10,589 nt of DNA from a candidate division CSSED10-310 bacterium (GTDB lineage Bacteria; CSSED10-310; JAFGJC01), in the NCBI GenBank assembly GCA_016929305.1, contig JAFGJC010000471.1:1-10589 (forward strand). Reading direction: 5' to 3'. Shown one piece after another: positions 1 to 10,589 of the stretch. The notes below the pieces were generated by a model. It saw only the letters and a list, made by a program, of their open reading frames with translations, was not told the origin of the DNA and did no database searches. The position numbers were made by a program, and so were the translations under genes. Numbering within the stretch: the first letter of the stretch is position 1; the number at the start of each line of letters is the position of its first letter.

Positions 1-218
1 AAATAACACTTCGTGGCAATGTTCTTCCGGTCGGGGGTATTAAAGAAAAAATACTTGCCGCCTATCGAAGCAATATTGAAATGGTGATTTTACCGAAGCG
101 AAACAAAAAAGATCTCGATGAAATACCGGAATACGTAAAGAAAAAATTGAATTTTAAATATGTTGAAACTATCGATGATGTACTGAAGATCGCATTTCCA
201 AAAGTTGAGGAAATCTAA
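1..218 (+). CDS. lon: ATP-dependent Lon protease, C-terminal fragment (5' partial; the gene begins upstream of the window). Stop codon TAA at 216-218.
   Basis: Reading from position 3 gives [71 protein letters not shown]. This matches the conserved Lon proteolytic-domain C-terminus (…LRGxVLPIGGLKEKxLAAhRxGIKxVxIPxxNxxDLxEIP…). It is not in the ORF track because it has no in-window start. Confidence 0.9.
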
Positions 219-1148: not shown

Positions 1149-1994
1149 TTAACTCAAATAATCCTTGAGTTTTCTGCGTGATGCCACACGCTTTAATTTT
1201 TGGATAGCTCGTTGCTCAATTTTTCTTATTCGCTCTCGAGTTAATCCATATTTATTGCCTATTTCCTGTAATGTTTTTGGTTTGCCATCAAACCCATAGT
1301 GCATTTTCAATATTTCAGTTTCTCTGTCATCAAGACACGCCATCAACAACTCCACCTCATCAGCAAATGCATCTTCCATCACCTGGTCTTCAGCGGAAAC
1401 TGTTTCATAGTCCATTAGATCTATAAATTTTAAAGATTCATCTTCGTTATCAGAATGTGGTTCAATGGGGAGTGAAGCGCGGGTAGTCCGAAGTAAATTC
1501 TCTATCTCATTTTCAGGAATACCCATTGAATCTGAAAGTTCAGTGATTGTTGGCTCATGCCCTAACTCCTGTGTCAATGTCTGGATTCTTTTATTAATAC
1601 TGCTAAGTAAATTGGCTTGACTTTGCGGAAGTTTAACAATTCCAGACTTTGCTGAGATGGCATAAAGAATAGCCTGACGCACCCACCACACAGCATAGGT
1701 AATGAATTTGACACCCCGTTCTGGATTGAACCGCTTGGCAGCCTCAATGAGTCCGATTGTACCTTCATTGATAAGATCTTCCAGGGGCATGCCTGATCCG
1801 AGGTATTTTTTTGCTATAGAAACAACAAATCTGAGATTCGCTTTTACCAGTTCCTGGATCGCCGATTCGTCTCCCTCCTGAATTCGACGAGCGATTTCAG
1901 CTTCTTCCTCCTTGTCAAACATTCTGTATTTATTTATTTCCTGTAAATATTTCGAGAGGGAATTCTGATCTTCCATTGGCTTGTCAGTCCTCAT
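1149..1994 (-). CDS. RNA polymerase sigma factor, sigma-70 family. It is a short (281 aa) RpoD-like form lacking region 1.1, which resembles the compact primary sigma of the Bacteroidetes/FCB group.
   Basis: Region 1.2 (LSKYLQEI), region 2 (ANLRFVVSIAKKY…LEDLINEGTIGLIEAAKRFNPERGVKFITYAVWWVRQAI), region 3, and the region 4 HTH (LQEIGNKYGLTRERIRKIEQRAIQKLKR) are all recognisable. The start ATG overlaps the upstream hspR-like stop (ATGA) and is preceded by AAGGA 8 nt upstream. Confidence 0.9.
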   Translation of the reverse strand: MRTDKPMEDQNSLSKYLQEINKYRMFDKEEEAEIARRIQEGDESAIQELVKANLRFVVSIAKKYLGSGMPLEDLINEGTIGLIEAAKRFNPERGVKFITYAVWWVRQAILYAISAKSGIVKLPQSQANLLSSINKRIQTLTQELGHEPTITELSDSMGIPENEIENLLRTTRASLPIEPHSDNEDESLKFIDLMDYETVSAEDQVMEDAFADEVELLMACLDDRETEILKMHYGFDGKPKTLQEIGNKYGLTRERIRKIEQRAIQKLKRVASRRKLKDYLS

Positions 1995-2401
1995 GACGTT
2001 TCCTTATCATCCGATCTTTTTTCTATATGTATTACCGTTTTATAGGGAGATTTGATTAGGATACTTTCGAATCGATTCCGCAATTCCTCATCGCTTCGAC
2101 ATAATTCCTCCTGAATGTATCGAATTAATGTTTTAAATTCAGCCTGCATACTTTCAATTTCGCGTTTAAGACGCAGAATGATTTCTGTTCCCGCAATATT
2201 TACTCCCAGTTCGCGTGTCAGGGTAATAACACGGCGTATATCATCGATATCATCTTCGGAATAAAGCCTGGTATTCCCGTCTGAACGGGATGGTTTGATC
2301 AACCCTGATCTTTCATAATTCCGAAGTGTTTGGGGATGAATATCAAGTATTTTCGCGATTGCTGAAATCAAGTATTTAGGTTCATCGCGTTCGGGTTTCA
2401 A
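1991..2401 (-). CDS. hspR: MerR-family transcriptional regulator, HspR-like (heat-shock repressor type). It appears to use a TTG start at 2401, preceded by GGAGAGTGAGG.
   Basis: YLISAIAKILDIHPQTLRNYERSGLIKPSRSDGNTRLYSEDDIDDIRRVITLTRELGVNIAGTEII aligns closely to the Streptomyces/Helicobacter HspR winged-HTH (…[32 protein letters not shown]…RRYSxxDIELLRQVQQLSQDEGINLAGIKRII…). A C-terminal coiled-coil follows. The identification is from memory of the HspR family. Confidence 0.8.
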   Translation of the reverse strand: MKPERDEPKYLISAIAKILDIHPQTLRNYERSGLIKPSRSDGNTRLYSEDDIDDIRRVITLTRELGVNIAGTEIILRLKREIESMQAEFKTLIRYIQEELCRSDEELRNRFESILIKSPYKTVIHIEKRSDDKETS

Positions 2402-2846: not shown

Positions 2847-3872
2847 TTATTGGGATGCAGACGGTTTAGATTTTGGAAACATGGAACCGAGTACACCGGA
2901 AAGATCCATCACGGAAGTGCTGGTATCGCCCGTCGGGATTCCCCAGACTTGGAAGCTTTCGCCCAGATGTTTCGCAAATTCCATTCGCACCAGCTGTTCA
3001 GCACCGTTTCCGGACAATGCTTCTACCAGTGCTTTTTGAGCTTTAGCCTGAGCCAGCCCGACCTCTTCAATACCCAACGCTTCACGCTGTTTTGCATATA
3101 GGTTTGCATCAGCCGATAACTCGATTTTTTTAGCTTCACCCTGGGCTTTCTTTACCATCGCCAATCGTTCACCTTCTGCTTCAGCTTCCGTTTTCTTCGC
3201 AAGTTCTTCTGCTGCCAGACGCTGTTCCACAGCAATACGCTTCATTTCAATTGCAGCCTGATACTCCTCGGTAAATTCAAATCTTCTGAACAGAATCTCC
3301 GTAATAATCAATCCAAATTCCGTTGTCCCGGTTTGTGTTTCAGTACCGCTATTTACAAGTTCTCTTATTTCTTTTGCTACTTTCTGCCTTGTTCTTCCAT
3401 CATATATTTCTTCCGCTGAATATTCGCCAAGTTTGTTATTGATCAGGGATCGTACGGTGGGTCGCACTATATTCGTAATAAACGTTTTTCCATATCGGCG
3501 GTGAAGTTCGGGAAGTTTTTCGAAATCCAGTCTATATCGAACAGTCACATCAATCCAGGCTTTTTGACCGTCTTTTGTTTTAAAAGAAACATCATCGCGA
3601 CCTCCATCCTGATCCTGGAACATGTCATAGTGCATTTCCTGTACCGGATAAATATCAACGATGGTTAGATGCGGAATATTTATATACAGACCGGGTTCGA
3701 GCGGTACGGGAACAATACCCTGTTTGAACCAACCGCTCTTTCCAAATCCCTGTCCAAAACCCAGCATATTCGTTCGGACACCACCTTCCTGCGGTCCAAC
3801 CTCAGAACATCCAAAAATAAAACCGATGATAGCGATGACTACAATTACAATCAGTATTGAAAGTTTTCTCAT
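2847..3872 (-). CDS. SPFH/band-7 (stomatin/prohibitin/HflC-like) membrane-anchored protein. The N-terminal signal/anchor carries a possible lipobox-like FGC. The ORF track's GTG start at 3878 is probably an extension; the ATG at 3872 has an AGAGAGG SD 7 nt upstream.
   Basis: An N-terminal hydrophobic segment MRKLSILIVIVVIAIIGFIFGC is followed by a band-7 core (…FKTKDGQKAWIDVTVRYRLD…IVRPTVRSLINNKLGEYSAEEIY…RQKVAKEIRE) and a long Ala/Glu/Lys-rich coiled-coil (EQRLAAEELAKKTEAEAEGERLAMVKKAQGEAKK…), which is typical of HflK/C-type SPFH proteins. Confidence 0.85.
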   Translation of the reverse strand: MRKLSILIVIVVIAIIGFIFGCSEVGPQEGGVRTNMLGFGQGFGKSGWFKQGIVPVPLEPGLYINIPHLTIVDIYPVQEMHYDMFQDQDGGRDDVSFKTKDGQKAWIDVTVRYRLDFEKLPELHRRYGKTFITNIVRPTVRSLINNKLGEYSAEEIYDGRTRQKVAKEIRELVNSGTETQTGTTEFGLIITEILFRRFEFTEEYQAAIEMKRIAVEQRLAAEELAKKTEAEAEGERLAMVKKAQGEAKKIELSADANLYAKQREALGIEEVGLAQAKAQKALVEALSGNGAEQLVRMEFAKHLGESFQVWGIPTGDTSTSVMDLSGVLGSMFPKSKPSASQ

Positions 3873-3894
3873 GATCACCTCTCTTTTAATTCAA

Positions 3895-5157
3895 TCATAA
3901 ACTATCCTGCAATTCAGGAACACTTTCAGGATGTGTATAATTCCCGGGAAAAAATGACGGATCCATATGCTCTTTTCTTAAATGAACAGTCTGAATATCA
4001 TCTTTGGTTCTGGGTTCGCCGTCTGCACCTTTGCTGCTGAGCATGTAACCTTCCGCTGTTTTTGTATACACAACAAGATTGCCCCAGCTGTCAGTCAAGT
4101 CATCATCGGATAAATAGCCGTTTTCAACAAACTCATTGGAAAAATCGGGATATTGATTGTAAATCAGTCGATAAGTAGAAAGCGCAAACTGTATTTGATC
4201 CATTTTTGCTTTAGTCCGTATTTTATGCTCTGTTTCCAATCCCTGCCATTCAAACATGAGGAAAAGTCTGAAAGGCATAAGCCATAAGAAAATCAAAAGC
4301 ACTATGGCAACACCCGGAATAATCAAATACTTCAGTTTTTCCTGGATTACCTGTAGATGTGAATGCCATTTTGTAACCATCTCTGATTTCGGCTTCTCCG
4401 GCACAGGAATGAGGACAACGCCCAAGTCTTCCAGATCCACGAGAGCTTGGTAACTGTAACCAGGAAACTGATGACAGCTTTGAACGATTTCATTAACCGT
4501 GAACAGACCATTTACATAGTTATATACTCTTTCCTGCAATGCAGACAACATAATGGTATTGTCAGGCAGCTGTTTTTCGGAAACTTCCGCACGTTCCGGA
4601 ACAACTCTGATTTCCGGAATTAAACGGGGAATTGCGTCAAAATCAGGAATCTGCTGCTTGATCCAATCCCATGTTTTCAGGAAAGTGTCGCCCGTTTCTG
4701 CATATTCCATTAAATCAATGGGGCGAGCAGTCTCCCTATCATAAGTAACATTCTCCTCCGATCTGAAAACAAAGAATCCATGCTGCCAAATAAAACATGG
4801 AAAAATAATCAATAGCATCTGATCTTCCAAAACATCCATAAGTTGTTCCAGATTGACCAAATTTTCTTCCAAAGCAAGATATCCGAATTTTCTGAAAACG
4901 TTGTTCTGGACATCCAGTAGATGCAACAGTTTTTCCTCTGTAAGTAATCCTCTTTTGCATAGAAGCTGCCCTATCCGAATTTCCTCCTGTGGATAATGTG
5001 ATTCTGCTCCCACACATAACCCAAACTCAAATACCATGACAACGGTATCAGTTTCACCTTGAATCGTCAGAACTCCAGTAGCCTTATCAAGAACGATTTC
5101 TTTGACAAGTTGATAAAACAGATGGTCCCGAAGACTCCCTTCCAAAGGAAAATTCAT
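3895..5157 (-). CDS. Multidomain membrane protein of unknown function. It has a cytoplasmic DUF4388-like domain containing two tandem MshEN-type putative c-di-GMP-binding motifs, one TM helix (~4252-4335), and a periplasmic domain that resembles the type II secretion pseudopilin GspG C-terminal domain (~3985-4227) without any prepilin leader. The ATG at 5157 overlaps the upstream stop (TGATG); the ORF track's first codon at 5160 is TTG.
   Basis: Motifs: RIGQLLCKRGLLTEEKLLHLLDVQ – NNVFR – KFGYLALEENLVNLEQLMDVLEDQ, versus the published MshEN consensus RLGxxLLxxGLIxxxxLxxALxxQ – 5 aa – repeat. TM helix: KYLIIPGVAIVLLIFLWLMPF. C-terminal domain: AKMDQIQFALSTYRLIYNQYPDF…DSWGNLVVYTKTAEGYMLSSKGADGEPRTKDDI, which aligns to GspG …DIVALENALDMYKLDNSVYPTT…[38 protein letters not shown]. 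Confidence 0.8.
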   Translation of the reverse strand: MNFPLEGSLRDHLFYQLVKEIVLDKATGVLTIQGETDTVVMVFEFGLCVGAESHYPQEEIRIGQLLCKRGLLTEEKLLHLLDVQNNVFRKFGYLALEENLVNLEQLMDVLEDQMLLIIFPCFIWQHGFFVFRSEENVTYDRETARPIDLMEYAETGDTFLKTWDWIKQQIPDFDAIPRLIPEIRVVPERAEVSEKQLPDNTIMLSALQERVYNYVNGLFTVNEIVQSCHQFPGYSYQALVDLEDLGVVLIPVPEKPKSEMVTKWHSHLQVIQEKLKYLIIPGVAIVLLIFLWLMPFRLFLMFEWQGLETEHKIRTKAKMDQIQFALSTYRLIYNQYPDFSNEFVENGYLSDDDLTDSWGNLVVYTKTAEGYMLSSKGADGEPRTKDDIQTVHLRKEHMDPSFFPGNYTHPESVPELQDSL

Positions 5158-7040
5158 CAATCTGTCTCCCTAATAATCAGCAATAGAGAAAAACAATAAA
5201 TGATCAGCATTAAACTAATGAGAATGACTGTTTCATAAAGTTGACCCAACTGAGGAACCAACCAAGACACTGGAAGCCACGTTTGAGCGGTTATCAGAGT
5301 TGACAGCGAAAACGACCAAAGCAGAGCCAGTATAAATCCTGAAGTCAATCGACCATCATAGACTGCTCCCATACCGGGAAACAGCACCGTAAGGCAGATT
5401 TTCGTCAGTTTTCTTCTTCTGACTCTTGTATTGACATCACGCAGATTTTTATCCCTGTCTTTCGGATCGACCTGCCCCTTTTTGGTAATCATCATTTGGC
5501 AATGAGAACAGAATTTTTTCGAGTCCGAATTTTTTTGACAACGAGGGCACATGGATGCACCACATTTTATACAAAATCGGCTGACATTCATTCGTTTTGA
5601 AATTGCCGGGATGATTAAAAAAATAACAAAAACCGAAAAAAGAACTGTAAGAGCACTCCGCATTCCCAGTCCCGGTCCTAATTTTCGCCAGTGATTTTCC
5701 TGTTCAGCGAACGATCTTTCATAAAATTGCTCAAATTCCTGCCAAATCCATTTTTTAGGGAAAAGACCATCCAATAACATGCGGTTCGGATTGGATGATA
5801 GATTATCTGTGAATTTCGAAACGAGTTTTGGATTAAGGTCGTTCGCCTTCTTCAACATACTGTCCATTTGCTGAAACTTGAACTGATGTGAGTAGGCTTT
5901 CGATAAATTACAATAGATAGCTGCATTATTAGGGTCCGTATTTTCTGCTTTGCGATATTCCGCAATTGCTTCTCCAATATTGTTTAAAATAAAATAGATA
6001 TTACCCAAGTTGAGATGTCCTATCGCATCTGATCGTTCAATTCGTGTGTATTCCATATATTCTTTTAGTGCGTCGAAGTAATAACCACCCCGTTTATAAA
6101 GCATTCCCTTCAGGAAATGCATATGTGCTTTTGATGATGATCTATCAAGATGAGCTGACAAACGGTCAATACTTTCCGCAGAATATCCCGCACCATGATA
6201 GGTATATGCCATAACCTGAATCAGCCCATCATCGTGTGCAAGCAAAACGGCAACACGAAAAACATTTAGGGGAAGGATAGCGAATAAAAACAGATATGAA
6301 AGCATCAACAGAGTGCGCTCACGCTTTCCAATATAGAACGAAAGCAAGAGCAACCACCAGAGAAACATCCAAAAAACACCAAAACCAAGCAAAAACGGCA
6401 AAACCAGTATTAAAATCACAAATATCCAAATTACTTTGGGCGGTACTTTCAGTGGCAGCCGTTCGAGTATTTCATGATGAAATAAATTGCTGTAACGAAC
6501 CACCAAAGCTGTCACGAGAATAACCATATTTATCAGAAACGTTAAAATAAGAGTGTTGCTGAGGTTACCGAGTAAAATAAGCTGTTGGTAAATATTTGAA
6601 AAAGCTTTCCAATAGGTAAGAAAACTTGTTAAAAAAGGTCCGAATACCGAAAAGATGTTTTTCTTGAAGGATACAACAATGCGTCCTCTGGCAGCAGGAA
6701 TAAAACCACCATCCATCTCTAAAGCACTCTCTAACGCCCAGAGTGCGGCGTCATAACGTTCCTGCTGGACAAGTTTCTGAGCGGAAACGACATAAGCTGC
6801 AGCAAGCTGAGGACTTAACGTTACTCCGTTGTTAAGGTTATAGTCGATGAGTGTCTCTTTGGCAGCAGCCATTACAATAGCGTTTGCATAACGATCGAAA
6901 AGACGCTCCGCCTGGATCTGCCAGAGCTCGTCGATACTCTGAGTGTTCTCAGCAGCACTGCATACGTTTGCTAACACAAACGTAAAAAGCAACATTAAAC
7001 ACACGATACCCGTTGGTAAAGAAATCCGATTCCATTTCAT
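5157..7040 (-). CDS. Large polytopic membrane protein with a cleavable signal peptide. It has a periplasmic helical N-domain, a ~5-TM bundle, TPR repeats (~5865-6152), a treble CxxC zinc-ribbon (5499-5573), and a C-terminal TM hairpin with a PG-x-G-x-x-Y-x-G motif. The ATG at 7040 (MKWNRIS…) is the likely start; the ORF track's TTG at 7049 is an extension.
   Basis: Signal peptide: MKWNRISLPTGIVCLMLLFTFVLANVCSA|AE. Hydrophobic helices lie between residues ~130 and 270. TPR-like repeats: AHMHFLKGMLYKRGGYYFDALKEYMEYT…AIGHLNLGNIYFILNNIGEAIAEYRKA…AAIYCNLSKAYSHQ. Zinc ribbon: CIKCGASMCPRCQKNSDSKKFCSHC. C-terminus: LFPGMGAVYDGRLTSGFILALLW plus a final TM. I could not assign a confident family. Confidence 0.8.
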   Translation of the reverse strand: MKWNRISLPTGIVCLMLLFTFVLANVCSAAENTQSIDELWQIQAERLFDRYANAIVMAAAKETLIDYNLNNGVTLSPQLAAAYVVSAQKLVQQERYDAALWALESALEMDGGFIPAARGRIVVSFKKNIFSVFGPFLTSFLTYWKAFSNIYQQLILLGNLSNTLILTFLINMVILVTALVVRYSNLFHHEILERLPLKVPPKVIWIFVILILVLPFLLGFGVFWMFLWWLLLLSFYIGKRERTLLMLSYLFLFAILPLNVFRVAVLLAHDDGLIQVMAYTYHGAGYSAESIDRLSAHLDRSSSKAHMHFLKGMLYKRGGYYFDALKEYMEYTRIERSDAIGHLNLGNIYFILNNIGEAIAEYRKAENTDPNNAAIYCNLSKAYSHQFKFQQMDSMLKKANDLNPKLVSKFTDNLSSNPNRMLLDGLFPKKWIWQEFEQFYERSFAEQENHWRKLGPGLGMRSALTVLFSVFVIFLIIPAISKRMNVSRFCIKCGASMCPRCQKNSDSKKFCSHCQMMITKKGQVDPKDRDKNLRDVNTRVRRRKLTKICLTVLFPGMGAVYDGRLTSGFILALLWSFSLSTLITAQTWLPVSWLVPQLGQLYETVILISLMLIIYCFSLLLIIRETD

Positions 7041-7190
7041 CCTGCTCAAATTACCATAGATAGTAGTCGTTATTCAATCGTGATAATTCCATATGGTCCC
7101 ACTCATTGGGAAACCAATAAAAACCACAAGCTGAGAAGCAATTGCCACCTCTAGATCTTCTCTGACTTTTCCGGCATAGCGTAAGGATTC

Positions 7191-7204
7191 ATTCAATATT
7201 GAAT
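7191..7204. promoter_or_regulatory. Perfect 14-bp palindrome ATTCAATATTGAAT, a candidate operator, in the 209-bp divergent intergenic region between the 7-gene minus-strand cluster and the plus-strand small gene.
   Basis: The sequence is its own reverse complement and sits ~55 bp upstream of the ATG at 7259. It is flanked by the partial repeat GGATTC…ATTGAT. Confidence 0.4.
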
Positions 7205-7258
7205 ATTGATTTCACATTGTCGATTTCTATAAAATTTAACATAGAATCAGGAATTTTG

Positions 7259-7540
7259 ATGAAAAAAAAGCGGGATGAAGCCGAACAGGAAAGATTAGGA
7301 CAAGAACTTAGTAAAGTCATCGCCGACCTGGTCTCTAATTCACATGAAGTTCAGGACATCGTTTATGCCATGCATAAAAAGGGTTATAAACCAAATATTT
7401 GGCTATCTGTTTATATTCTTCTTTCCGACAGCAATCCCAATGATACCTCTTTAGAAATGATAGATTACAATCTTTCAGCACAGGACATAAAATGGCTGCG
7501 ATCCATTAATATTGATGCTAATAACAAATCTGCAGAATAA
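7259..7540 (+). CDS. Small hypothetical protein (93 aa) that I could not assign to a family. The ORF track's 7199 start is an upstream extension; the ATG at 7259 has AGGAA 8 nt upstream.
   Basis: MKKKRDEAEQERLGQELSKVIADLVSNSHEVQDIVYAMHKKGYKPNIWLSVYILLSDS… is an open frame of plausible coding composition with an SD-like element. No motifs were recognised. Confidence 0.5.
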   Translation: MKKKRDEAEQERLGQELSKVIADLVSNSHEVQDIVYAMHKKGYKPNIWLSVYILLSDSNPNDTSLEMIDYNLSAQDIKWLRSINIDANNKSAE

Positions 7541-7963
7541 TTAGAGTGCTTTAATGCCGGGAATGTGTTTCATTCCGTCGACTTTTTCGTTTAATTTGCA
7601 CCTGATTTTAAATTCGGGATTTCTGAAAACAATTGAAAACCCGTGATCTCGCTGGAAAAGTTTCACATCATCAAGCGTTTTCTGAGTATTATCGGAATCT
7701 ATCTTGGCAACAGTACCTTCCTTTAAATTTACAATGAATACACCAAACTTAGTTGTTGTAATTTTTAAATTCAATCCTTCTTTATCACGGAAAATTTTAC
7801 CTTCTTCATCGGTTAACCAACCATCTTCATTCGCAGGATTAGCAAGAATCTGGTCTGTAACATCAATCCATTCCGAAGATTTCACATTTTCTTGAGCAAA
7901 AGAAGGTGAAGTCAGCAAGAATGTGCTCAAAACTAACATAACAAGTAAAAGCTGCCGTTTCAT
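7541..7963 (-). CDS. Secreted hypothetical protein (~140 aa) with an N-terminal signal peptide. The real start is the ATG at 7963 (MKRQLLLVMLVLSTFLLTSPSFA|QE), preceded by a strong AGGAGG SD. The ORF track's 8056 start is an extension.
   Basis: The reverse complement of 7961-7986 reads GTTTTTATTAGGAGGTTAGGTATG. The signal peptide is typical (positive n-region, hydrophobic core, AxA-like SFAQ). The mature part is beta-rich and Lys/Asp-rich with no recognised domain. Confidence 0.6.
   Translation of the reverse strand: MKRQLLLVMLVLSTFLLTSPSFAQENVKSSEWIDVTDQILANPANEDGWLTDEEGKIFRDKEGLNLKITTTKFGVFIVNLKEGTVAKIDSDNTQKTLDDVKLFQRDHGFSIVFRNPEFKIRCKLNEKVDGMKHIPGIKAL
7559..7587 (+). terminator. Possible weak intrinsic terminator for the 7259..7540 gene. 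The stem is GGAATG/CATTCC with loop TGTTT, followed after 6 nt by a TTTTT run. It lies inside the 3' end of the convergent minus-strand CDS.
   Basis: Inverted repeat at 7560-7565 and 7571-7576 with a T5 run at 7583-7587. The U-run is not immediately adjacent, so this is weak. Confidence 0.25.
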
Positions 7964-8068
7964 ACCTAACCTCCTAATAAAAACAACTGTTCTGCTGGTG
8001 CAACATAACATGGTTGTCTTGTGATGTCCAGGCACTTGAGTTGAGATGCAGAGCATTCCTGTCAGTTG

Positions 8069-8097
8069 CTTGACAGACAGCCCAAAATGTTATTAGT
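8069..8097 (+). promoter_or_regulatory. Candidate promoter for the methyltransferase/glycosyltransferase operon. A TTGACA -35-like hexamer (8069-8074) is embedded in an inverted repeat CTGTCA-N6-TGACAG (8058-8075). TATTAG follows ~16 bp downstream (8091-8096).
   Basis: The sequence itself. The -10 lacks the terminal T, so it is weak. If real, it implies the CDS starts at the ATG at 8111/8117 rather than the TTG at 8066. Confidence 0.25.
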
Positions 8098-8110
8098 TCT
8101 TGAGCTGAGA

Positions 8111-9247
8111 ATGATAATGAATCCTACTGCATTACCACCGGACAAATACCAGCGCTACCGTCAGGCAGCCCAGATAATCCATGCAAATTGCGATATGCAG
8201 TCTGCCGTCAGTATTCTGGATATCGGTGCCAGTGAAAATTTACTGGCAATGTTCCTGCCCGGAGCAAACGTCATTCAGCTTGACAAATCCCCAGGTAAGA
8301 ATTCAAAACACATAATATGTGGAAATGCTCAGCAGCTTCCTTTTTCCGACAATACTTTCTCCTTCGCTATCGCACTCGATCTACTTGAACACTTGCCAAA
8401 ATCGGATCGCCAGCAGGCGGTACGTGAAGCCGGGAGAGTCGCTCAGAATGGTCTCATTATCGCGTTTCCTGTTCAATCCAACACCACCGAAAAACTGGAA
8501 AACATCCTTAACGCGATTGAAGTATCTACGCGAGGTCAGACCAATCCATTTCTCGATGAGCACCATCTTCACGGGTTAGTTGAAGAAGCACCATTGATTC
8601 AATATCTCAAGACTGTTTATCCCTTCGTCATATCACTTCCCAATTATAATCTTACCGCGTGGTTTCTAGGCAGTATTTGGGAAGAAATTTTCGCTATGCT
8701 TCCATGTTCAGAAAGGTTAAAGGTTTCGATATATGAGTTATTCAATAGATTGTATTTCGATACGAATTTGAAGCATCCGGTTTATCGCTTAACTGTTGTT
8801 GCGAGTAACAGCCAAATGAAACTACCCGAACCATCTGATGTTTCTGCCGATCTGGTGAAAACCGCTGAAATGCTTCAATCCGATGTGACACGTACTTTTG
8901 AATCCCTAAAATCCCTTGATACGTATGCCAGGAAAATGCAACTGGAACTTGACGACAGTTCTACCTCACGAAAATCTCTTGAAAACGCCTATCTTCGCTT
9001 GGAAAAAGAAATACACCAGAAAACTCGGGAACTCAGCGAATTGACACGATCCAACCATCTTCTCCAAAAAGAATATGATTCAACAAAAAAATACGTTGAA
9101 AAAGTTGAAATTGCGTATCGTCACAGTCTAAGTTTAATCTCATCGCTAGAACAGCATATCACTGATCTTCAGAATGAGTTGATACGTATACTGACGGATC
9201 CTTCCGGTTCAAGAAAATCTGACAACCGTGATGATGAAGTCCCATGA
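8111..9247 (+). CDS. Class I SAM-dependent methyltransferase (Methyltransf_11-like) with a ~120-aa C-terminal coiled-coil. The start is uncertain: candidates are TTG 8066, ATG 8087, ATG 8111, and ATG 8117.
   Basis: Motif I is ILDIGASENLL, the acidic post-I motif is VIQLDKSP, and motifs II/III are ICGNAQQLPFSDNTFSFAIALDLLEHL. The C-terminal heptad-rich segment runs KTAEMLQSDVTRTFESLKSLDTYARKMQLELDD…LEKEIHQKTRELSELTRSNHLLQKEYDSTKKYVEKVEIAYRHSLSLISSLEQHITDLQNELIRIL. Confidence 0.8.
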   Translation: MIMNPTALPPDKYQRYRQAAQIIHANCDMQSAVSILDIGASENLLAMFLPGANVIQLDKSPGKNSKHIICGNAQQLPFSDNTFSFAIALDLLEHLPKSDRQQAVREAGRVAQNGLIIAFPVQSNTTEKLENILNAIEVSTRGQTNPFLDEHHLHGLVEEAPLIQYLKTVYPFVISLPNYNLTAWFLGSIWEEIFAMLPCSERLKVSIYELFNRLYFDTNLKHPVYRLTVVASNSQMKLPEPSDVSADLVKTAEMLQSDVTRTFESLKSLDTYARKMQLELDDSSTSRKSLENAYLRLEKEIHQKTRELSELTRSNHLLQKEYDSTKKYVEKVEIAYRHSLSLISSLEQHITDLQNELIRILTDPSGSRKSDNRDDEVP

Positions 9248-10589
9248 AACGTTTACTTGTTTTTGGATTAAGCCCGTTACCTTTCGAAAACACCACTAAG
9301 AATTTCGGCCCCGGAATACGTGCCTGGCAATTCATTCAACCGCTTCTTCAGCATGACTGTGAAGTCATGCTTCTCGCTAATCGAATTCCATATATTTATC
9401 CTGAGAATACGCCTCCGGAGGTCACCATATCGAAAGGCTCTTTCAACTACACACACATGTCAGATCATGTGTTTCGAAATCAGCAAAAAATTCAAGCATA
9501 TTATGATCGTTTTAAACCCGACGCCATATTATCTGCAACAATTTTCGCATCTCCACCGTTGAAGACGTTAAAAACGGATCTGCCAATCTGGATTGATCTT
9601 TTTGGACATGTCATGGCAGAAGCTCAGGCAAAAGCGTACAGATATCAAAGTAACGATTACCTGGAACATTTTTGGAAACACGAAATTTCAGCTTTGGAAA
9701 CCGGTGATATTTTCTCAACCGTCTCGAAAGCACAGGAATATGCCACTATCGGTGAGCTGGGTCTGCTGGGAAGACTGAGTGCTCAGACAACAGGCTATCG
9801 ATTTACACGTGTCATTCCATGTGCTATGGATCCAGATCCACTTGAACATAAAACGCAAGCTTTTCGTGGCATCGACGTTCCCGAGGATGCATTTGTTGTT
9901 TTATGGAGTGGTGGATATAACACTTGGACCGATATTGACACGCTTTTTGAAGGTCTAGATAAGGCAATGTCTAAAAATCCGGATATCTGGTTTGTGTCGA
10001 CAGGAGGACAAATAGACGGGCACGATGAAAAAACCTATCCAAAATTCCTTCGCAAAATAGCCAAATCCAGGTACAAGAATCGATTCATAATGAAGGGATG
10101 GATCCCTAAAATAGGAGTGACCGATTATTATTTCGAAGCAGATATTGGCATTAACATTGACTTGTTCATGTATGAGGGAATGTTTGGTTCCAAGAATAGA
10201 GTTCTTGACTGGATGCGCGCAGGATTGCCCAGCCTTATTGGAGAATTATGTGAGCTTTCACATGATCTTCCAGAAAAAAAACTTGCATTCAATTATCCGC
10301 TTCAGAATGCAGACGCGCTTGCCGAAAAACTGCTATATCTAGCTAAAAACCGAGATATGGTGCGGGAAACAGGACAACGTGCAAAGGAATTCGGTCTGAA
10401 ATATTTAACTTTCGAAGCATCTACCAGAATGTTTCAGAATTGGCTGATCTCTCCTGAAAAATCACCCGATCATAGCAACAAGAATATAAAAACACCTTCG
10501 TTCATATCATCCAGAACGAAGATCAACAGTGATACGTTGACCTCTCTGCAAAACGCTCACGATCATATCCTTGAACTCGAAAACTATAT
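9244..10589 (+). CDS. Glycosyltransferase, family GT4 (group 1, GT-B fold), 3' partial. It runs off the window and starts at an ATG overlapping the methyltransferase stop (ATGA). It is not listed in the ORF track.
   Basis: My translation gives MKRLLVFGLSPLPFENTTKNFGPGIRAWQFIQPLLQHDCEVMLLANRIPY…VVLWSGGYNTWTDIDTLFEGLDKAMSKNPDIWFVSTGGQ…FEADIGINIDLFMYEGMFGSKNRVLDWMRAGLPSLIGE…. It contains the GT4 EX7E-type motif (E…G.FGSKNRVLDWMRAGLP) and the C-terminal Rossmann-half architecture. Confidence 0.8.
   Translation, partial: MKRLLVFGLSPLPFENTTKNFGPGIRAWQFIQPLLQHDCEVMLLANRIPYIYPENTPPEVTISKGSFNYTHMSDHVFRNQQKIQAYYDRFKPDAILSATIFASPPLKTLKTDLPIWIDLFGHVMAEAQAKAYRYQSNDYLEHFWKHEISALETGDIFSTVSKAQEYATIGELGLLGRLSAQTTGYRFTRVIPCAMDPDPLEHKTQAFRGIDVPEDAFVVLWSGGYNTWTDIDTLFEGLDKAMSKNPDIWFVSTGGQIDGHDEKTYPKFLRKIAKSRYKNRFIMKGWIPKIGVTDYYFEADIGINIDLFMYEGMFGSKNRVLDWMRAGLPSLIGELCELSHDLPEKKLAFNYPLQNADALAEKLLYLAKNRDMVRETGQRAKEFGLKYLTFEASTRMFQNWLISPEKSPDHSNKNIKTPSFISSRTKINSDTLTSLQNAHDHILELENY

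What the first reader, a model, noticed from the sequence alone, without database searches (positions are those of the whole stretch)
5157..7040. TPR + treble-CxxC zinc-ribbon polytopic membrane protein translationally coupled to the pseudopilin-like fusion protein
**Gene coupling.**
- The stop of this gene and the start of the fusion gene overlap as TGATG (5155-5159), so the two are co-translated as a pair.
- They are the first two genes of a tightly packed minus-strand cluster.

**Domain mosaic.** The 627-aa product combines:
- a signal peptide and a ~90-aa periplasmic helical domain;
- about five TM helices;
- a TPR array;
- another TM helix;
- a CxxC-x4-CxxC-x9-CxxC zinc ribbon;
- a C-terminal TM hairpin with the motif FPGMGAVYDGRLTSG. 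This recalls the PGxGQxYxG membrane motif seen in some zinc-ribbon/TM families.

**Interpretation.** This mosaic, paired with a putative c-di-GMP-binding pseudopilin-fold protein, looks like a two-component envelope module of unknown function. It could be a scaffold or sensor for a pilus-like or surface-polysaccharide machine.
Basis: partly seen in the sequence, partly recalled or inferred. Interest (0 to 1): 0.6.

Follow-up and report, generated by a model that had tools for sequence, protein, structure and literature searches.

The report
Conserved TPR/zinc-ribbon membrane protein gene pair
This gene encodes an unstudied membrane protein with a zinc-binding part inside the cell and TPR repeat domains outside; in many bacterial phyla it sits directly in front of one partner gene, so the two probably form an unknown cell-envelope signalling or scaffold complex.

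Summary
Window 5157-7040 (-) encodes a 627-aa polytopic membrane protein. Its TGA stop overlaps the ATG of the next gene (TGATG, 5155-5159).

Predicted layout: signal peptide, periplasmic TPR-like N-domain, 4-TM core, periplasmic TPR array, TM5, cytoplasmic Cys6 zinc ribbon, basic linker, then a PGxG[HQ] motif and two TMs.

It belongs to a large, unnamed family. At least 126 of the 150 best 50%-identity cluster representatives are full-length members. All are metagenomic and are labelled only 'TPR protein' or 'hypothetical'.

In every locus with downstream DNA (about 20 distinct loci; CSSED10-310, NC10, Nitrospirota, TA06, Edwardsbacteria and others), a PATAN / MshEN-like / TM / GspG-like gene follows within -11 to +13 nt. 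Flanking genes differ. The pair is an obligate module.

New here: the middle CxxC co-varies with an invariant H189-x3-[E/H]193 on the cytoplasmic end of TM1. This predicts a second zinc site that clamps the ribbon to the TM core.

No match to LapB, GT-C enzymes or O-antigen ligases, prepilin peptidase or anti-sigma factors. Function is inferred: a two-protein trans-membrane signalling or scaffold complex, possibly c-di-GMP-responsive.

The parts
5157..7040 (-). Target gene: 627-aa polytopic inner-membrane TPR / zinc-ribbon protein (NCBI MBN1552766.1, 'tetratricopeptide repeat protein', candidate division CSSED10-310). The stop codon is at 5157-5159.
6954..7040 (-). Residues 1-29: signal peptide or N-terminal anchor (MKWNR, then a hydrophobic stretch, then ANVCSA|AE).
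   Evidence: Hydropathy. pLDDT is low at residues 21-33. N-terminal signal-like segments are also present in long homologues.
6591..6953 (-). Residues 30-150: periplasmic all-helical, TPR-like N-domain.
   Evidence: Helices H36-147 in the AF2 model. Profile positions 65-140 hit TPR proteins in the PDB.
6231..6590 (-). Residues 151-270: four-helix TM core (TM1 ~158-184, TM2 ~201-217, TM3 ~221-238, TM4 ~244-268). Conserved P215, G221, Y236 and E241.
6462..6476 (-). Residues 189-193 (H-E-I-L-E): the H-x3-[E/H] motif on the cytoplasmic extension of TM1. It is predicted to supply ligands for a second zinc site together with C498/C501.
   Evidence: Among the 132 members with the middle CxxC, H189 is present in 132/132 and position 193 is E/H/D in 131/132. 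Both tend to be lost together with the CxxC.
5676..6230 (-). Residues 271-455: periplasmic TPR array.
5583..5675 (-). Residues 456-486: TM5, which returns the chain to the cytoplasm.
5487..5582 (-). Residues 487-518: cytoplasmic Cys6 zinc ribbon (C490, C493, C498, C501, C511, C514).
   Evidence: Sequence. Conservation. Weak Zn_Ribbon_1 and DZR hits. Small beta hairpins in the model.
5406..5486 (-). Residues 519-545: basic cytoplasmic linker helix (K+R about 0.28 per residue across the family).
5160..5405 (-). Residues 546-627: PGxG[HQ]hYxG[RK]xxxG motif followed by two TM helices. A DUF6677-like C-terminal module.
   Evidence: DUF6677 scores are below threshold: 14.1 bits in the window protein, and 6 of 18 members hit with a best score of 20.8 bits against a cut-off of 24.3.
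5155..5171 (-). Coupling junction: AGGGAG (5171-5166), an 8-nt spacer, then the partner ATG (5157-5155), which overlaps the target TGA (5159-5157).
   Evidence: The same tight junction (-11 to +13 nt) is seen in all 24 other loci with the pair (25 counting the window).
3895..5157 (-). Partner gene: 420 aa (MBN1552765.1). Cytoplasmic PATAN/DUF4388 domain with an MshEN/GSPII-like helical insertion (RIGQLLCKRGLLTEEKLLHLLDVQ-NNVFR-KFGYLALEENLVNLEQLMDVLEDQ, residues 61-113), one TM helix (~275-295), and a periplasmic GspG-like pseudopilin domain (313-388) with no prepilin leader.

Best explanation
**What it is**
The gene encodes one half of an obligate two-protein inner-membrane module.

**Layout of the target protein (inferred topology)**
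- Periplasm: two TPR-type protein-binding domains.
- Membrane: a 4+1+2 TM scaffold.
- Cytoplasm: a conserved surface made of a Cys4 zinc ribbon plus a second predicted zinc site. That site would use C498 and C501 from the ribbon and H189 and E193 from the extension of TM1, and would clamp the ribbon to the TM core.

**Layout of the partner**
- It is translated from the overlapping downstream gene.
- Cytoplasm: a PATAN domain carrying an MshEN/GSPII-like insertion that may bind c-di-GMP.
- Membrane: it crosses once.
- Periplasm: an unprocessed GspG-like pseudopilin domain.

**Proposed mechanism (inferred, not shown)**
- The two proteins form a heteromeric complex.
- The zinc-ribbon face of the target docks the PATAN/MshEN domain.
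- The TPR domains and the pseudopilin-like domain together form a periplasmic binding platform.
- A cytoplasmic signal (c-di-GMP or a PATAN-binding partner) is thereby coupled to a periplasmic or outer-envelope ligand, or the reverse.
- The logic resembles inside-out c-di-GMP signalling by LapD.

**What is shown and what is inferred**
- Shown: the gene, the domain composition, the size of the family, the strict pairing and tight coupling, and the co-variation of H-x3-[E/H] with the middle CxxC.
- Inferred: the topology, the second zinc site, the physical complex, nucleotide control, and the envelope target.
For: **Gene and junction**
- The ORF and the stop/start overlap are in the sequence.

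**Family**
- An exhaustive profile search returned at least 126 full-length, single-stretch members among the top 150 representatives (E <= 1e-92). The list was truncated at 150.
- The names attached to them are only 'TPR protein' or 'hypothetical'.

**Pairing**
- The partner is immediately downstream in the window, L001-L007, L009-L018, L089-L095.
- The stop-to-start distance is -11 to +13 nt.
- Flanking genes are unrelated between phyla.
- TPR-only loci from the same scan lack the partner.

**Topology**
- Hydropathy.
- AF2 model with pLDDT 83.5 and pTM 0.74.
- K+R density is 0.12-0.29 per residue in the predicted cytoplasmic loops and 0.02-0.10 in the periplasmic ones, over 149 members.

**Zinc sites**
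- Cys conservation.
- With the middle CxxC present (132 members), H189 is present in 132/132 and position 193 is E/H/D in 131/132.
- With it absent (16 members, at least 8 lineages by my grouping), H189 or the residue at 193 is lost in all but two sequences. Fisher p=1.4e-9.

**Partner anatomy**
-.

**Precedents**
- PATAN domains are output modules that bind membrane machinery (PilB1/PilC) (bioRxiv 10.1101/2021.06.11.447907).
- Cytosolic zinc ribbons of membrane proteins act as docking switches: GltJ and ZitP (PMC11135422).
- The MshEN motif is defined in PMC5013675.
Against: - No experimental data exist for any family member, and all members come from uncultured organisms.
- No complex prediction could be run. 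The models give no coordinates, so neither the second zinc site nor the interface was checked geometrically.
- The co-variation test is not corrected for phylogeny. Independence rests on my grouping into at least 8 lineages.
- The MshEN motif is degenerate in many partner homologues: only 12 of 39 match the relaxed motif. The window protein's second motif has N where G/A/S is required, and its NCBIfam score is just below the cut-off. c-di-GMP control therefore cannot be a family-wide property.
- No consistent third gene identifies the envelope target.
Confidence: 0.55

Rival explanations
1. It is an accessory or regulator of a type IV filament machine (type IV pilus or T2SS). In this reading the PATAN domain of the partner binds the PilB/GspE ATPase or the PilC/GspF platform. 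The anchored pseudopilin-like domain engages the assembly site. The periplasmic TPR domains act like the PilF, PilW or TadD pilotin-type TPR proteins.
For: - The partner's C-terminal domain is GspG-like: T2SSG 28.1 bits. Foldseek hits 3g20, 3gn9, PulG and XcpG with probability 0.96-1.0.
- The insertion is homologous to the GSPII/MshEN domains of PilF, PilB and MshE.
- Cyanobacterial PATAN domains bind PilB1 and PilC (bioRxiv 10.1101/2021.06.11.447907).
Against: - None of the roughly 20 distinct loci has pilus or T2SS genes adjacent to the pair, where flanking genes were inspected.
- The partner has no prepilin leader or cleavage motif, and it carries a 270-aa cytoplasmic N-terminus, so it cannot be incorporated into a filament like a pseudopilin.
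- The TPR similarity is not specific.
Confidence: 0.2
2. It is a functional analogue of LapB/YciM. In this reading a membrane TPR + zinc-domain protein balances lipopolysaccharide and phospholipid synthesis, for example by controlling proteolysis or activity of a committed enzyme, with the partner as a co-regulator.
For: - In four Nitrospirota loci the pair closes an operon of kdsA-kdsD-kdsC, a lipid A acyltransferase, a CDP-alcohol phosphatidyltransferase and plsY. The target start overlaps plsY.
- In a TA06 locus a heptosyltransferase-like gene follows the pair.
- LapB also combines TPRs with a Cys4 rubredoxin-like domain (my knowledge of PDB 4ZLH and the LapB literature).
- In CSSED10-310 an SPFH (HflK/C-like) gene and Lon lie nearby.
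Against: - No LapB model matched at E<=0.1 in NCBIfam.
- The architecture differs. Here a TM helix separates the TPR array from the zinc ribbon, and the topology places the TPRs in the periplasm. In LapB both are cytoplasmic and contiguous.
- The lipid/LPS gene context is confined to some phyla. Other loci show unrelated neighbours: mevalonate genes, PhoH, DUF1844, a sigma factor and tRNA synthetases.
Confidence: 0.12
3. It is a membrane-embedded enzyme, for example a GT-C-type glycosyltransferase or O-antigen-ligase-like protein with a C-terminal TPR domain, or a metal-dependent hydrolase. H189, D/E190 and E/H193 would be catalytic residues.
For: - The polar residues H189, D190, [E/H]193, Y236 and E241 are strongly conserved at one membrane face.
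- Many polytopic GT-C enzymes carry TPR tails. Some TPR hits in the searches are annotated as protein O-mannosyl-transferase.
- DUF6057 gave sub-threshold hits in 4 of 18 members.
Against: - Only four TM helices form the core.
- The conserved polar residues lie on the predicted cytoplasmic side, not in a periplasmic loop as in GT-C enzymes or ligases.
- No Pfam or NCBIfam match to Wzy_C, PMT or peptidase families.
- H189 and position 193 co-vary with a CxxC knuckle. Four protein ligands make a structural site rather than a catalytic one.
- The residue after PGxG is H or Q, not the Asp of GxGD proteases.
Confidence: 0.07
4. It is an anti-sigma-like membrane regulator of the neighbouring alternative sigma factor. 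The zinc domain would hold the sigma factor and the TPR domains would sense envelope stress.
For: - An RpoS/RpoH-like sigma-70 family gene lies four genes downstream in the window (1149-1994). A similar sigma gene directly follows the partner in the NC10 locus L012.
- An HspR-like repressor and Lon are nearby.
Against: - In the loci whose flanking genes were annotated, a sigma gene was seen only in CSSED10-310 and in the NC10 locus L012.
- Known zinc anti-sigma factors have an N-terminal HxxxCxxC domain followed by a single TM helix, and they target ECF sigmas. No zf-HC2 hit was found.
- The sigma here is a group 2/3-like protein with regions 1.2 to 4.
Confidence: 0.04

Closest known systems
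LapB (YciM), the LPS assembly regulator of Enterobacteria
   Same: - It is an inner-membrane protein that combines TPR repeats with a CxxC...CxxC zinc domain.
- In Nitrospirota the family is encoded within a kds/lipid A/phospholipid operon.
   Different: - No sequence match to the LapB models.
- LapB has one N-terminal TM helix, and its TPR and rubredoxin domains are contiguous in the cytoplasm.
- Here there are seven TM helices plus a signal peptide, the TPRs are predicted to be periplasmic, a TM helix separates the TPRs from a Cys6 ribbon, and there is an obligate PATAN/pseudopilin-like partner.
LapD-type inside-out c-di-GMP signalling (Pseudomonas fluorescens LapD/LapG)
   Same: Same logic only. 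A cytoplasmic c-di-GMP-binding domain is connected through the membrane to a periplasmic protein-binding output domain.
   Different: - The domains are unrelated: degenerate GGDEF/EAL plus HAMP in LapD, against PATAN+MshEN-like and GspG-like here.
- Two polypeptides are involved here.
- c-di-GMP binding is untested here.
- This comparison rests on my knowledge of the LapD literature. It is not a tool result.
MshEN / GSPII c-di-GMP-binding domains of MshE, PilB and PilF (partner protein)
   Same: - The family profile of the partner hits PilF GSPII (E=3e-17), PilB, and MshE 5HTL (E=1.4e-8).
- Motif 1 of the window protein matches the strict RhGxxhhxxGhhxxxxhxxxhxxQ pattern. A second motif follows after the canonical 5-residue spacer (PMC5013675).
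   Different: - The domain is inserted in a PATAN domain rather than sitting at the N-terminus of a secretion ATPase.
- Motif 2 has N at the G/A/S position.
- The NCBIfam score is 35.2 against a cut-off of 38.
- The motif is degenerate in most homologues.
GspG/PulG major pseudopilins (partner protein)
   Same: Pfam T2SSG scores above its cut-off. Foldseek gives TM-score 0.62 (normalised to the target) to 3g20 and 3gn9 with probability 1.0.
   Different: - No prepilin leader or G|F-T-L-x-E processing site.
- The hydrophobic helix is preceded by about 270 cytoplasmic residues.
- It is therefore a permanently anchored domain, not a filament subunit.
PatA-type PATAN-REC regulators (PixE, PixG) and the cytosolic zinc ribbons of GltJ and ZitP
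   Same: - PATAN acts as an output domain that docks onto membrane machinery (bioRxiv 10.1101/2021.06.11.447907).
- Cys4 zinc ribbons of membrane proteins act as switchable docking sites for cytoplasmic regulators (PMC11135422).
   Different: - There is no REC domain here.
- GltJ has an N-terminal ZnR+GYF, one TM helix and a periplasmic TonB-C domain.
- There is no detectable sequence relationship to the target.
Pfam DUF6677 (PF20382)
   Same: The C-terminal PGxG[HQ]hY motif plus TM segment gives consistent weak matches to profile positions 2-70 in 6 of 18 members.
   Different: - All scores are below the gathering cut-off: 14-21 bits against 24.3.
- DUF6677 itself has no known function.

Membership tests
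TPR repeat superfamily | 34-residue helix-turn-helix repeats that score above the Pfam gathering thresholds and adopt a TPR fold. | tested here: met
Zinc ribbon (Zn_Ribbon_1 / DZR) | Two CxxC knuckles on short beta hairpins, with an HMM match above the cut-off. | tested here: inconclusive
   C490/C493/C511/C514 are conserved in 99-100% of 149 members, and the model shows small hairpins. The Pfam scores are only 15-19 bits against cut-offs of 25-27. Metal binding cannot be tested here.
LapB / YciM | A match to the LapB family model. A single N-terminal TM helix, followed by cytoplasmic TPRs that are directly fused to a rubredoxin-like Cys4 domain. | tested here: not met
   No LapB model appears among the NCBIfam hits at E<=0.1. 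A TM helix (456-486) separates the TPRs from the zinc ribbon, and there are seven TM helices in all.
GT-C glycosyltransferases / O-antigen ligase (Wzy_C, PMT) | Eight or more TM helices with conserved acidic residues in a periplasmic loop, and a match to the family HMM. | tested here: not met
   No Wzy_C, PMT or GT-C hit for the whole protein, for the N-terminal 295 aa, or for 18 members. The core has four TM helices, and the conserved polar residues lie on the predicted cytoplasmic face.
Prepilin peptidase (Peptidase_A24 + DiS_P_DiS) | A cytoplasmic CxxC...CxxC, two catalytic Asp residues including a GxGD motif, and an HMM match. | tested here: not met
   No Pfam hit. The residue following PGxG is H (72) or Q (34) in 132 members and is never a conserved Asp.
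Zinc-binding anti-sigma factors (zf-HC2 / ZAS) | An N-terminal HxxxCxxC domain, a single TM helix, and an adjacent ECF sigma gene. | tested here: not met
   No zf-HC2 hit. The zinc domain is near the C-terminus. The neighbouring sigma is RpoS/RpoH-like, not ECF, and no sigma gene was seen in most loci whose flanks were annotated.
Pfam DUF6677 | A score at or above the gathering cut-off of 24.3 bits. | tested here: not met
   The window protein scores 14.1 bits. The best score among 18 members is 20.8 bits, and 6 of 18 hit below threshold. Remote homology is possible, but membership is not established.
New family defined here (627-aa TPR/Cys6/PGxG membrane proteins) | A full-length, single-stretch match to the family profile, with the hallmark residues H189, Y236, E241, C490/493/511/514, P555, G556 and G568, and a PATAN-TM gene immediately downstream. 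| tested here: met
   The window protein is the top hit at 834 bits over positions 1-625. All hallmark residues are present. The partner overlaps the stop codon.
MshEN c-di-GMP receptor domain (partner) | Two 24-residue motifs [RKPN]hGxxhhxx[GAS]hhxxxxhxxxhxx[QNKRYWST] separated by 5 residues (PMC5013675), and demonstrated c-di-GMP binding. | tested here: inconclusive
   Motif 1 is a strict match. Motif 2 fails at one position (N in place of G/A/S), although the spacing is correct. NCBIfam c-di-GMP_motif scores 35.2 bits against a cut-off of 38. PDB profile hits to PilF, PilB and MshE range from E=3e-17 to 1e-8. Binding itself cannot be tested here.
GspG major pseudopilin (partner) | The T2SSG globular fold, plus an N-terminal prepilin leader with a G|F(T/S)LxE cleavage and methylation site. 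| tested here: not met
   The fold criterion is met: Pfam 28.1 against 21 and Foldseek hit 3g20 with probability 1.0. The leader and processing motif are absent, and the hydrophobic helix is internal at about residues 275-295. The partner is GspG-like in fold but is not a pseudopilin.
PATAN / DUF4388 (partner) | PF14332 scoring above its cut-off. | tested here: met
   48 bits against a cut-off of 25, E=1.5e-12. PatA_N is also called in all partner homologues.

The most novel reading that the evidence does not exclude
The pair is a previously unrecognised, widespread trans-envelope signalling device. A PATAN/MshEN-type cytoplasmic sensor is fused through the membrane to a non-polymerising pseudopilin domain. 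Together with a dedicated TPR membrane protein carrying two zinc sites, it would transmit second-messenger or PATAN-partner status to the periplasm or outer membrane, or the reverse. This would be a new class of inside-out signalling module, and a new use of the pseudopilin fold outside type IV filament machines.
Probability: 0.3. Interest if true: 0.75.

Novelty: new variant of a known kind. Interest (0 to 1): 0.55.

Why it matters
- The family is large. At least 126 clusters at 50% identity appear in a list that was truncated at 150.
- It spans many mostly uncultured phyla: CSSED10-310, NC10, Nitrospirota, TA06, Edwardsbacteria, Acidobacteriota, Leptospirales and delta-proteobacterial MAGs. 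It is annotated only as 'TPR protein'.
- Recognising it as half of an obligate gene pair gives both genes a testable context. The partner, currently mis-annotated as 'GspG', should be re-annotated.
- The pair may add a new output route for PATAN and c-di-GMP signalling at the cell envelope. In Nitrospirota it points to a link with LPS and phospholipid biogenesis.
- The predicted composite Cys2-His-Glu/His zinc site is a concrete structural hypothesis. It can be checked quickly by metal analysis or by inspecting model coordinates.

Tried and rejected
- **Word-indexed homologue searches** found only about 11 members and were swamped by generic TPR proteins. They badly underestimated the family. 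The exhaustive profile search corrected this.
- **The search for related loci with the 11-sequence alignment** failed because no stretch was conserved enough. A 6-sequence alignment worked, but its pattern (NLGNIYF) mostly returned TPR-only loci. These then served as negative controls.
- **Pfam and NCBIfam on the isolated N-terminal and C-terminal parts, and on 18 members,** gave nothing above threshold. DUF6677 and DUF6057 were below threshold.
- **N-terminal extensions of longer members** were checked for informative domain fusions. They are only charged, low-complexity segments after a signal peptide.
- **A consistent third gene** was sought but not found. DUF1844 is directly upstream in only 3 loci. 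kds/lpx/pls genes occur only in Nitrospirota. A sigma factor occurs only in CSSED10-310 and NC10.
- **My recollection that GltJ has periplasmic TPRs was wrong.** The paper describes a TonB-C domain, so GltJ is cited only as a precedent for a zinc ribbon.
- **Rfam** found no RNA family in the window. Promoter and terminator scans were at chance level.
- **Literature searches** for DUF4388, PATAN plus pseudopilin, DUF6677 and CSSED10-310 found no description of this pair.

Full report

Yes. The ORF listing finds a minus-strand ORF from 7049/7040 to 5157. The ATG at 7040 gives the 627-aa protein that NCBI already holds as MBN1552766.1, 'tetratricopeptide repeat protein', from a candidate division CSSED10-310 MAG.

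The sequence around the 3' end reads ...AGGGAGACAGATTGATGAAT.... The TGA stop (5159-5157) shares its A with the ATG (5157-5155) of the next gene. An AGGGAG box lies 8 nt upstream of that ATG.

Downstream genes follow with gaps of -4 to +19 nt. One correction applies here. A further minus-strand gene (7541-7963) lies about 500 bp upstream. It encodes a small secreted protein that is conserved in the phylum. The target is therefore the first gene of the tight block but not of the strand.

**2. Anatomy of the protein**

- Pfam detects only TPR repeats above threshold (residues about 320-403), plus weak zinc-ribbon matches.
- Hydropathy and an AF2 model built on 11 sequences (pLDDT 83.5, pTM 0.74) give this order of elements:
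  - signal peptide or anchor, 1-29;
  - all-helical N-domain, 36-147. It is itself TPR-like, because family profile positions 65-140 hit TPR proteins in the PDB;
  - four TM helices at about 158-184, 201-217, 221-238 and 244-268;
  - TPR array, 273-452;
  - TM5, 460-484;
  - a small beta-hairpin Cys cluster, 487-518;
  - a long basic helix, 526-553;
  - the PGMGAVYDGR motif;
  - two final TM helices, 565-583 and 600-626.
- Over 149 family members, K+R density is 0.12-0.29 per residue in the loops assigned to the cytoplasm and 0.02-0.10 in those assigned to the periplasm.
- The inferred topology therefore places both TPR-type domains in the periplasm. The Cys cluster, the basic linker and the C-terminus are placed in the cytoplasm.
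The rest of the mosaic is confirmed.

**3. The family is large and unnamed**

- The word-indexed search found only a handful of relatives.
- The exhaustive HMM search against 1.84 billion cluster representatives returned 150 rows, the maximum. At least 126 of these are 545-830-aa proteins that match the whole profile in one stretch with E <= 1e-92. The true family is therefore larger than the list.
- Twenty sampled clusters carry only the names 'tetratricopeptide repeat protein' or 'hypothetical protein'. They come from MAGs of Nitrospirota, Acidobacteriota, 'Deltaproteobacteria' and unclassified bacteria.
- A scan of GTDB species genomes added members in NC10, Nitrospirota, TA06, Edwardsbacteria and Leptospirales MAGs.
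- No solved structure and no Pfam or NCBIfam family covers the TM core or the C-terminal module. The only recurring hint is a sub-threshold similarity between the PGxG-plus-TM segment and DUF6677. DUF6677 is itself uncharacterised.

**4. The gene pair is obligate**

- In the three CSSED10-310-type loci the whole neighbourhood is syntenic. The order is target, PATAN protein, SPFH, YjbQ, MerR, sigma, PfkB, Lon. That alone says little.
- The decisive evidence comes from distant members at 19-26% identity whose flanking genes are entirely different. Examples are L005, L006, L007 and L012-L018.
- In every such locus where DNA continues downstream, the next gene on the same strand matches a profile of the window's partner over its full length.
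- Starting instead from partner homologues, three independent look-ups each found a 667-675-aa family member directly upstream.
- The most divergent clade (P0020) also has the pair.
- Across the 24 other loci with the pair (25 with the window, about 20 distinct), the stop-to-start distance is -11 to +13 nt.
- The roughly 70 TPR-only loci returned by the same scan have no such neighbour.
The pair is a conserved two-gene module.

**5. What the partner is**

- Pfam gives PATAN/DUF4388 (residues 6-150, E=1.5e-12) and T2SSG (residues 313-388, 28.1 bits against a cut-off of 21).
- The helical insertion inside PATAN (residues 61-113) is homologous to MshEN/GSPII c-di-GMP-binding domains.
  - The family profile hits T. 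thermophilus PilF (E=3e-17), PilB, and V. cholerae MshE 5HTL.
  - NCBIfam's c-di-GMP motif scores 35.2 bits, just below its cut-off of 38.
- The window protein carries RIGQLLCKRGLLTEEKLLHLLDVQ. This is a strict match to the 24-residue motif of Wang et al. (PMC5013675). The canonical 5-residue spacer follows, and then a second copy with N at the G/A/S position.
- An AF2 model (pLDDT 74.9) has major pseudopilins (3g20, 3gn9, PulG, XcpG) and PilF GSPII domains as its best Foldseek matches.
- There is no prepilin leader. The hydrophobic helix lies at about residues 275-295, after a 270-residue cytoplasmic region.
- The partner is therefore a bitopic protein with a cytoplasmic PATAN/MshEN-like domain and a periplasmic, non-polymerising GspG-like domain. 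The database name 'GspG' is misleading.
- One caveat applies. Only 12 of 39 partner homologues match the relaxed motif at all. c-di-GMP binding is plausible for this protein but cannot be a universal property of the family.

**6. A new structural inference: a second zinc site**

- In the 149-member alignment the outer four cysteines are essentially invariant. The middle C498-x2-C501 is present in 89% of members.
- The other outstanding conserved residues lie on the cytoplasmic side of the TM core. They are H189 (93%), D/E190, position 193, Y236 and E241.
- Among the 132 members that keep the middle CxxC, H189 is present in all 132. Position 193 is E (92), H (36) or D (3) in 131 of them.
- Sixteen members lack the CxxC. 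By pairwise identity they fall into at least eight lineages.
  - Nine of these members have lost H189 (to N, Y or F).
  - Five others have lost the E/H at position 193.
  - Only two keep both.
  - Fisher p for CxxC against H189 is 1.4e-9, not corrected for phylogeny.
- H-x3-[E/H] on one face of a helix plus a CxxC knuckle is a classical four-ligand zinc site.
- TM5 ends only six residues before C490, so the ribbon must lie against the membrane surface, next to the extension of TM1.
- I therefore predict two sites. Site 1 is C490/C493/C511/C514. Site 2 is C498/C501/H189/E193, and it clamps the ribbon to the TM core.
- The window protein has all the ligands. This is an inference. The tools give no model coordinates, so the geometry could not be checked.

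**7. Genomic context and function**

Only the pair itself is universal. Recurrent but lineage-restricted neighbours are as follows.

- Nitrospirota (L006, L008, L013, L016): kdsA, kdsD, kdsC, a lipid A acyltransferase, a CDP-alcohol phosphatidyltransferase and plsY. The target start overlaps plsY.
- TA06: a heptosyltransferase-like gene.
- L005, L012 and L095: DUF1844 directly upstream.
- The L007 clade: PhoH and a mechanosensitive-channel-like gene downstream.
- CSSED10-310: SPFH, YjbQ, an HspR-like repressor, an RpoS/RpoH-like sigma, Lon, and a divergent methyltransferase / glycosyltransferase operon.
- NC10: a similar sigma gene immediately after the partner.

No pilus, T2SS or polysaccharide-export genes are linked in any locus.

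The evidence therefore supports an envelope-associated two-protein complex but does not identify its client. The mechanism I consider most likely (confidence about 0.55) has three parts.

- The zinc-ribbon face of the target docks the partner's PATAN/MshEN domain.
- The TPR domains and the pseudopilin-like domain form a joint periplasmic binding platform.
- The complex couples a cytoplasmic signal to an envelope process, or the reverse.

Two precedents support this. PATAN domains are output modules that bind membrane machinery (bioRxiv 10.1101/2021.06.11.447907). The cytosolic zinc ribbons of GltJ and ZitP are switchable docking sites (PMC11135422).

**8. Rivals**

- An accessory of a type IV filament machine (0.2). 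It is favoured by the domain ancestry of the partner and disfavoured by the absence of linked machine genes and of a prepilin signal.
- A LapB-like regulator of LPS and phospholipid balance (0.12). It is favoured by the Nitrospirota operons and the TPR+zinc combination. It is disfavoured by topology, the lack of any LapB match and the unrelated contexts elsewhere.
- A membrane enzyme (0.07). It is disfavoured by the small TM core, the cytoplasmic position of the conserved residues and their co-variation with a CxxC.
- An anti-sigma-like regulator (0.04). Among the loci whose flanks were annotated, a sigma gene was seen in only two phyla, and the architecture is wrong.

**9. Novelty and verdict**

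- All the constituent domains are known.
- The 627-aa architecture, its strict pairing with a PATAN-TM-pseudopilin-like protein and the predicted composite zinc site are, as far as the searchable literature and family libraries show, undescribed.
- I rate it a new variant built from known kinds of parts. It is not categorically new, because no new mechanism has been demonstrated.
- Interest is 0.55. It is a solid, widely distributed and experimentally tractable lead, but its function is unknown.
The suggested link to a pilus or polysaccharide machine remains unsupported.

Noticed in passing
window 3895-5157 (-): The partner protein is annotated in NCBI as 'type II secretion system protein GspG'. 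In fact it is a bitopic PATAN / MshEN-like / TM / GspG-like fusion with no prepilin leader. The alpha-helical insertion of its PATAN domain is an MshEN/GSPII-type module, with tandem 24-residue motifs and the canonical 5-residue spacer.
   Followed up: yes
window 7541-7963 (-); L001 9373-9819; L002 5714-6226: A small secreted protein (about 140 aa after the signal peptide, with no Pfam family) is conserved at 39% identity upstream of the pair in CSSED10-310 genomes. It has invariant QRDHG and GMK..GIK motifs. It is absent from the other phyla examined.
   Followed up: partly
window 7041-7540: A 500-bp AT-rich gap (GC about 0.36) lies upstream of the target. It contains only a non-conserved 113-aa plus-strand ORF (7199-7540). 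There is no Rfam hit, and promoter-like matches are at chance level. It is probably the promoter or regulatory region of the block.
   Followed up: partly
window 1149-2401 (-); L012 6554-7417: An HspR-like MerR regulator (104.3 bits against a cut-off of 105) overlaps by 4 nt an RpoS/RpoH-like sigma-70 family gene of 281 aa. A similar 288-aa sigma gene directly follows the partner gene in an NC10 genome. Lon (C-terminus at window 1-215, +) and an SPFH/HflK-like gene (2847-3878) are also in the block, which suggests a stress or proteostasis neighbourhood.
   Followed up: partly
window 8066-9247 (+) and 9238-10589 (+): A divergently transcribed SAM-methyltransferase with a long C-terminal coiled coil is followed by a glycosyltransferase-like gene that runs off the window. 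It gives a weak Glyco_trans_1_4 hit. In related genomes the operon is methyltransferase, then GT2 (about 780 aa), then GT1. This may be a polysaccharide or glycoconjugate operon, and it is syntenic only within the phylum.
   Followed up: partly
L006 895-8673, L008 2-4345, L013 1-3864, L016 1331-3011: In Nitrospirota the pair is the distal end of an operon containing kdsA, kdsD, kdsC, a lipid A acyltransferase, a CDP-alcohol phosphatidyltransferase and plsY. The target start codon overlaps the end of plsY.
   Followed up: partly
L005 7876-8325, L012 2886-3215, L095 5648-5905: A DUF1844 gene (unknown function) sits immediately upstream of the target in three very distant members. In L005 and L095 a divergent MazG gene lies beside it. 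It was not found in the other loci.
   Followed up: yes
P0100, P0122, P0127, P0133, P0147, P0149, P0172, P0210 (family members of 720-830 aa): A subgroup carries an insertion of 100-200 residues right after the signal peptide. The insertion is highly charged (K/E/D-rich) and of low complexity, so these members have a long, presumably disordered periplasmic tether.
   Followed up: partly
P0159/P0228/P0229/P0020 clade (for example L095 6001-7674): A divergent clade has replaced PGxG[HQ] with PGLNLNF and lacks both the middle CxxC and the E/H at position 193. It still keeps the PATAN partner, but that partner is shorter (321 aa) and has no detectable T2SSG domain.
   Followed up: partly
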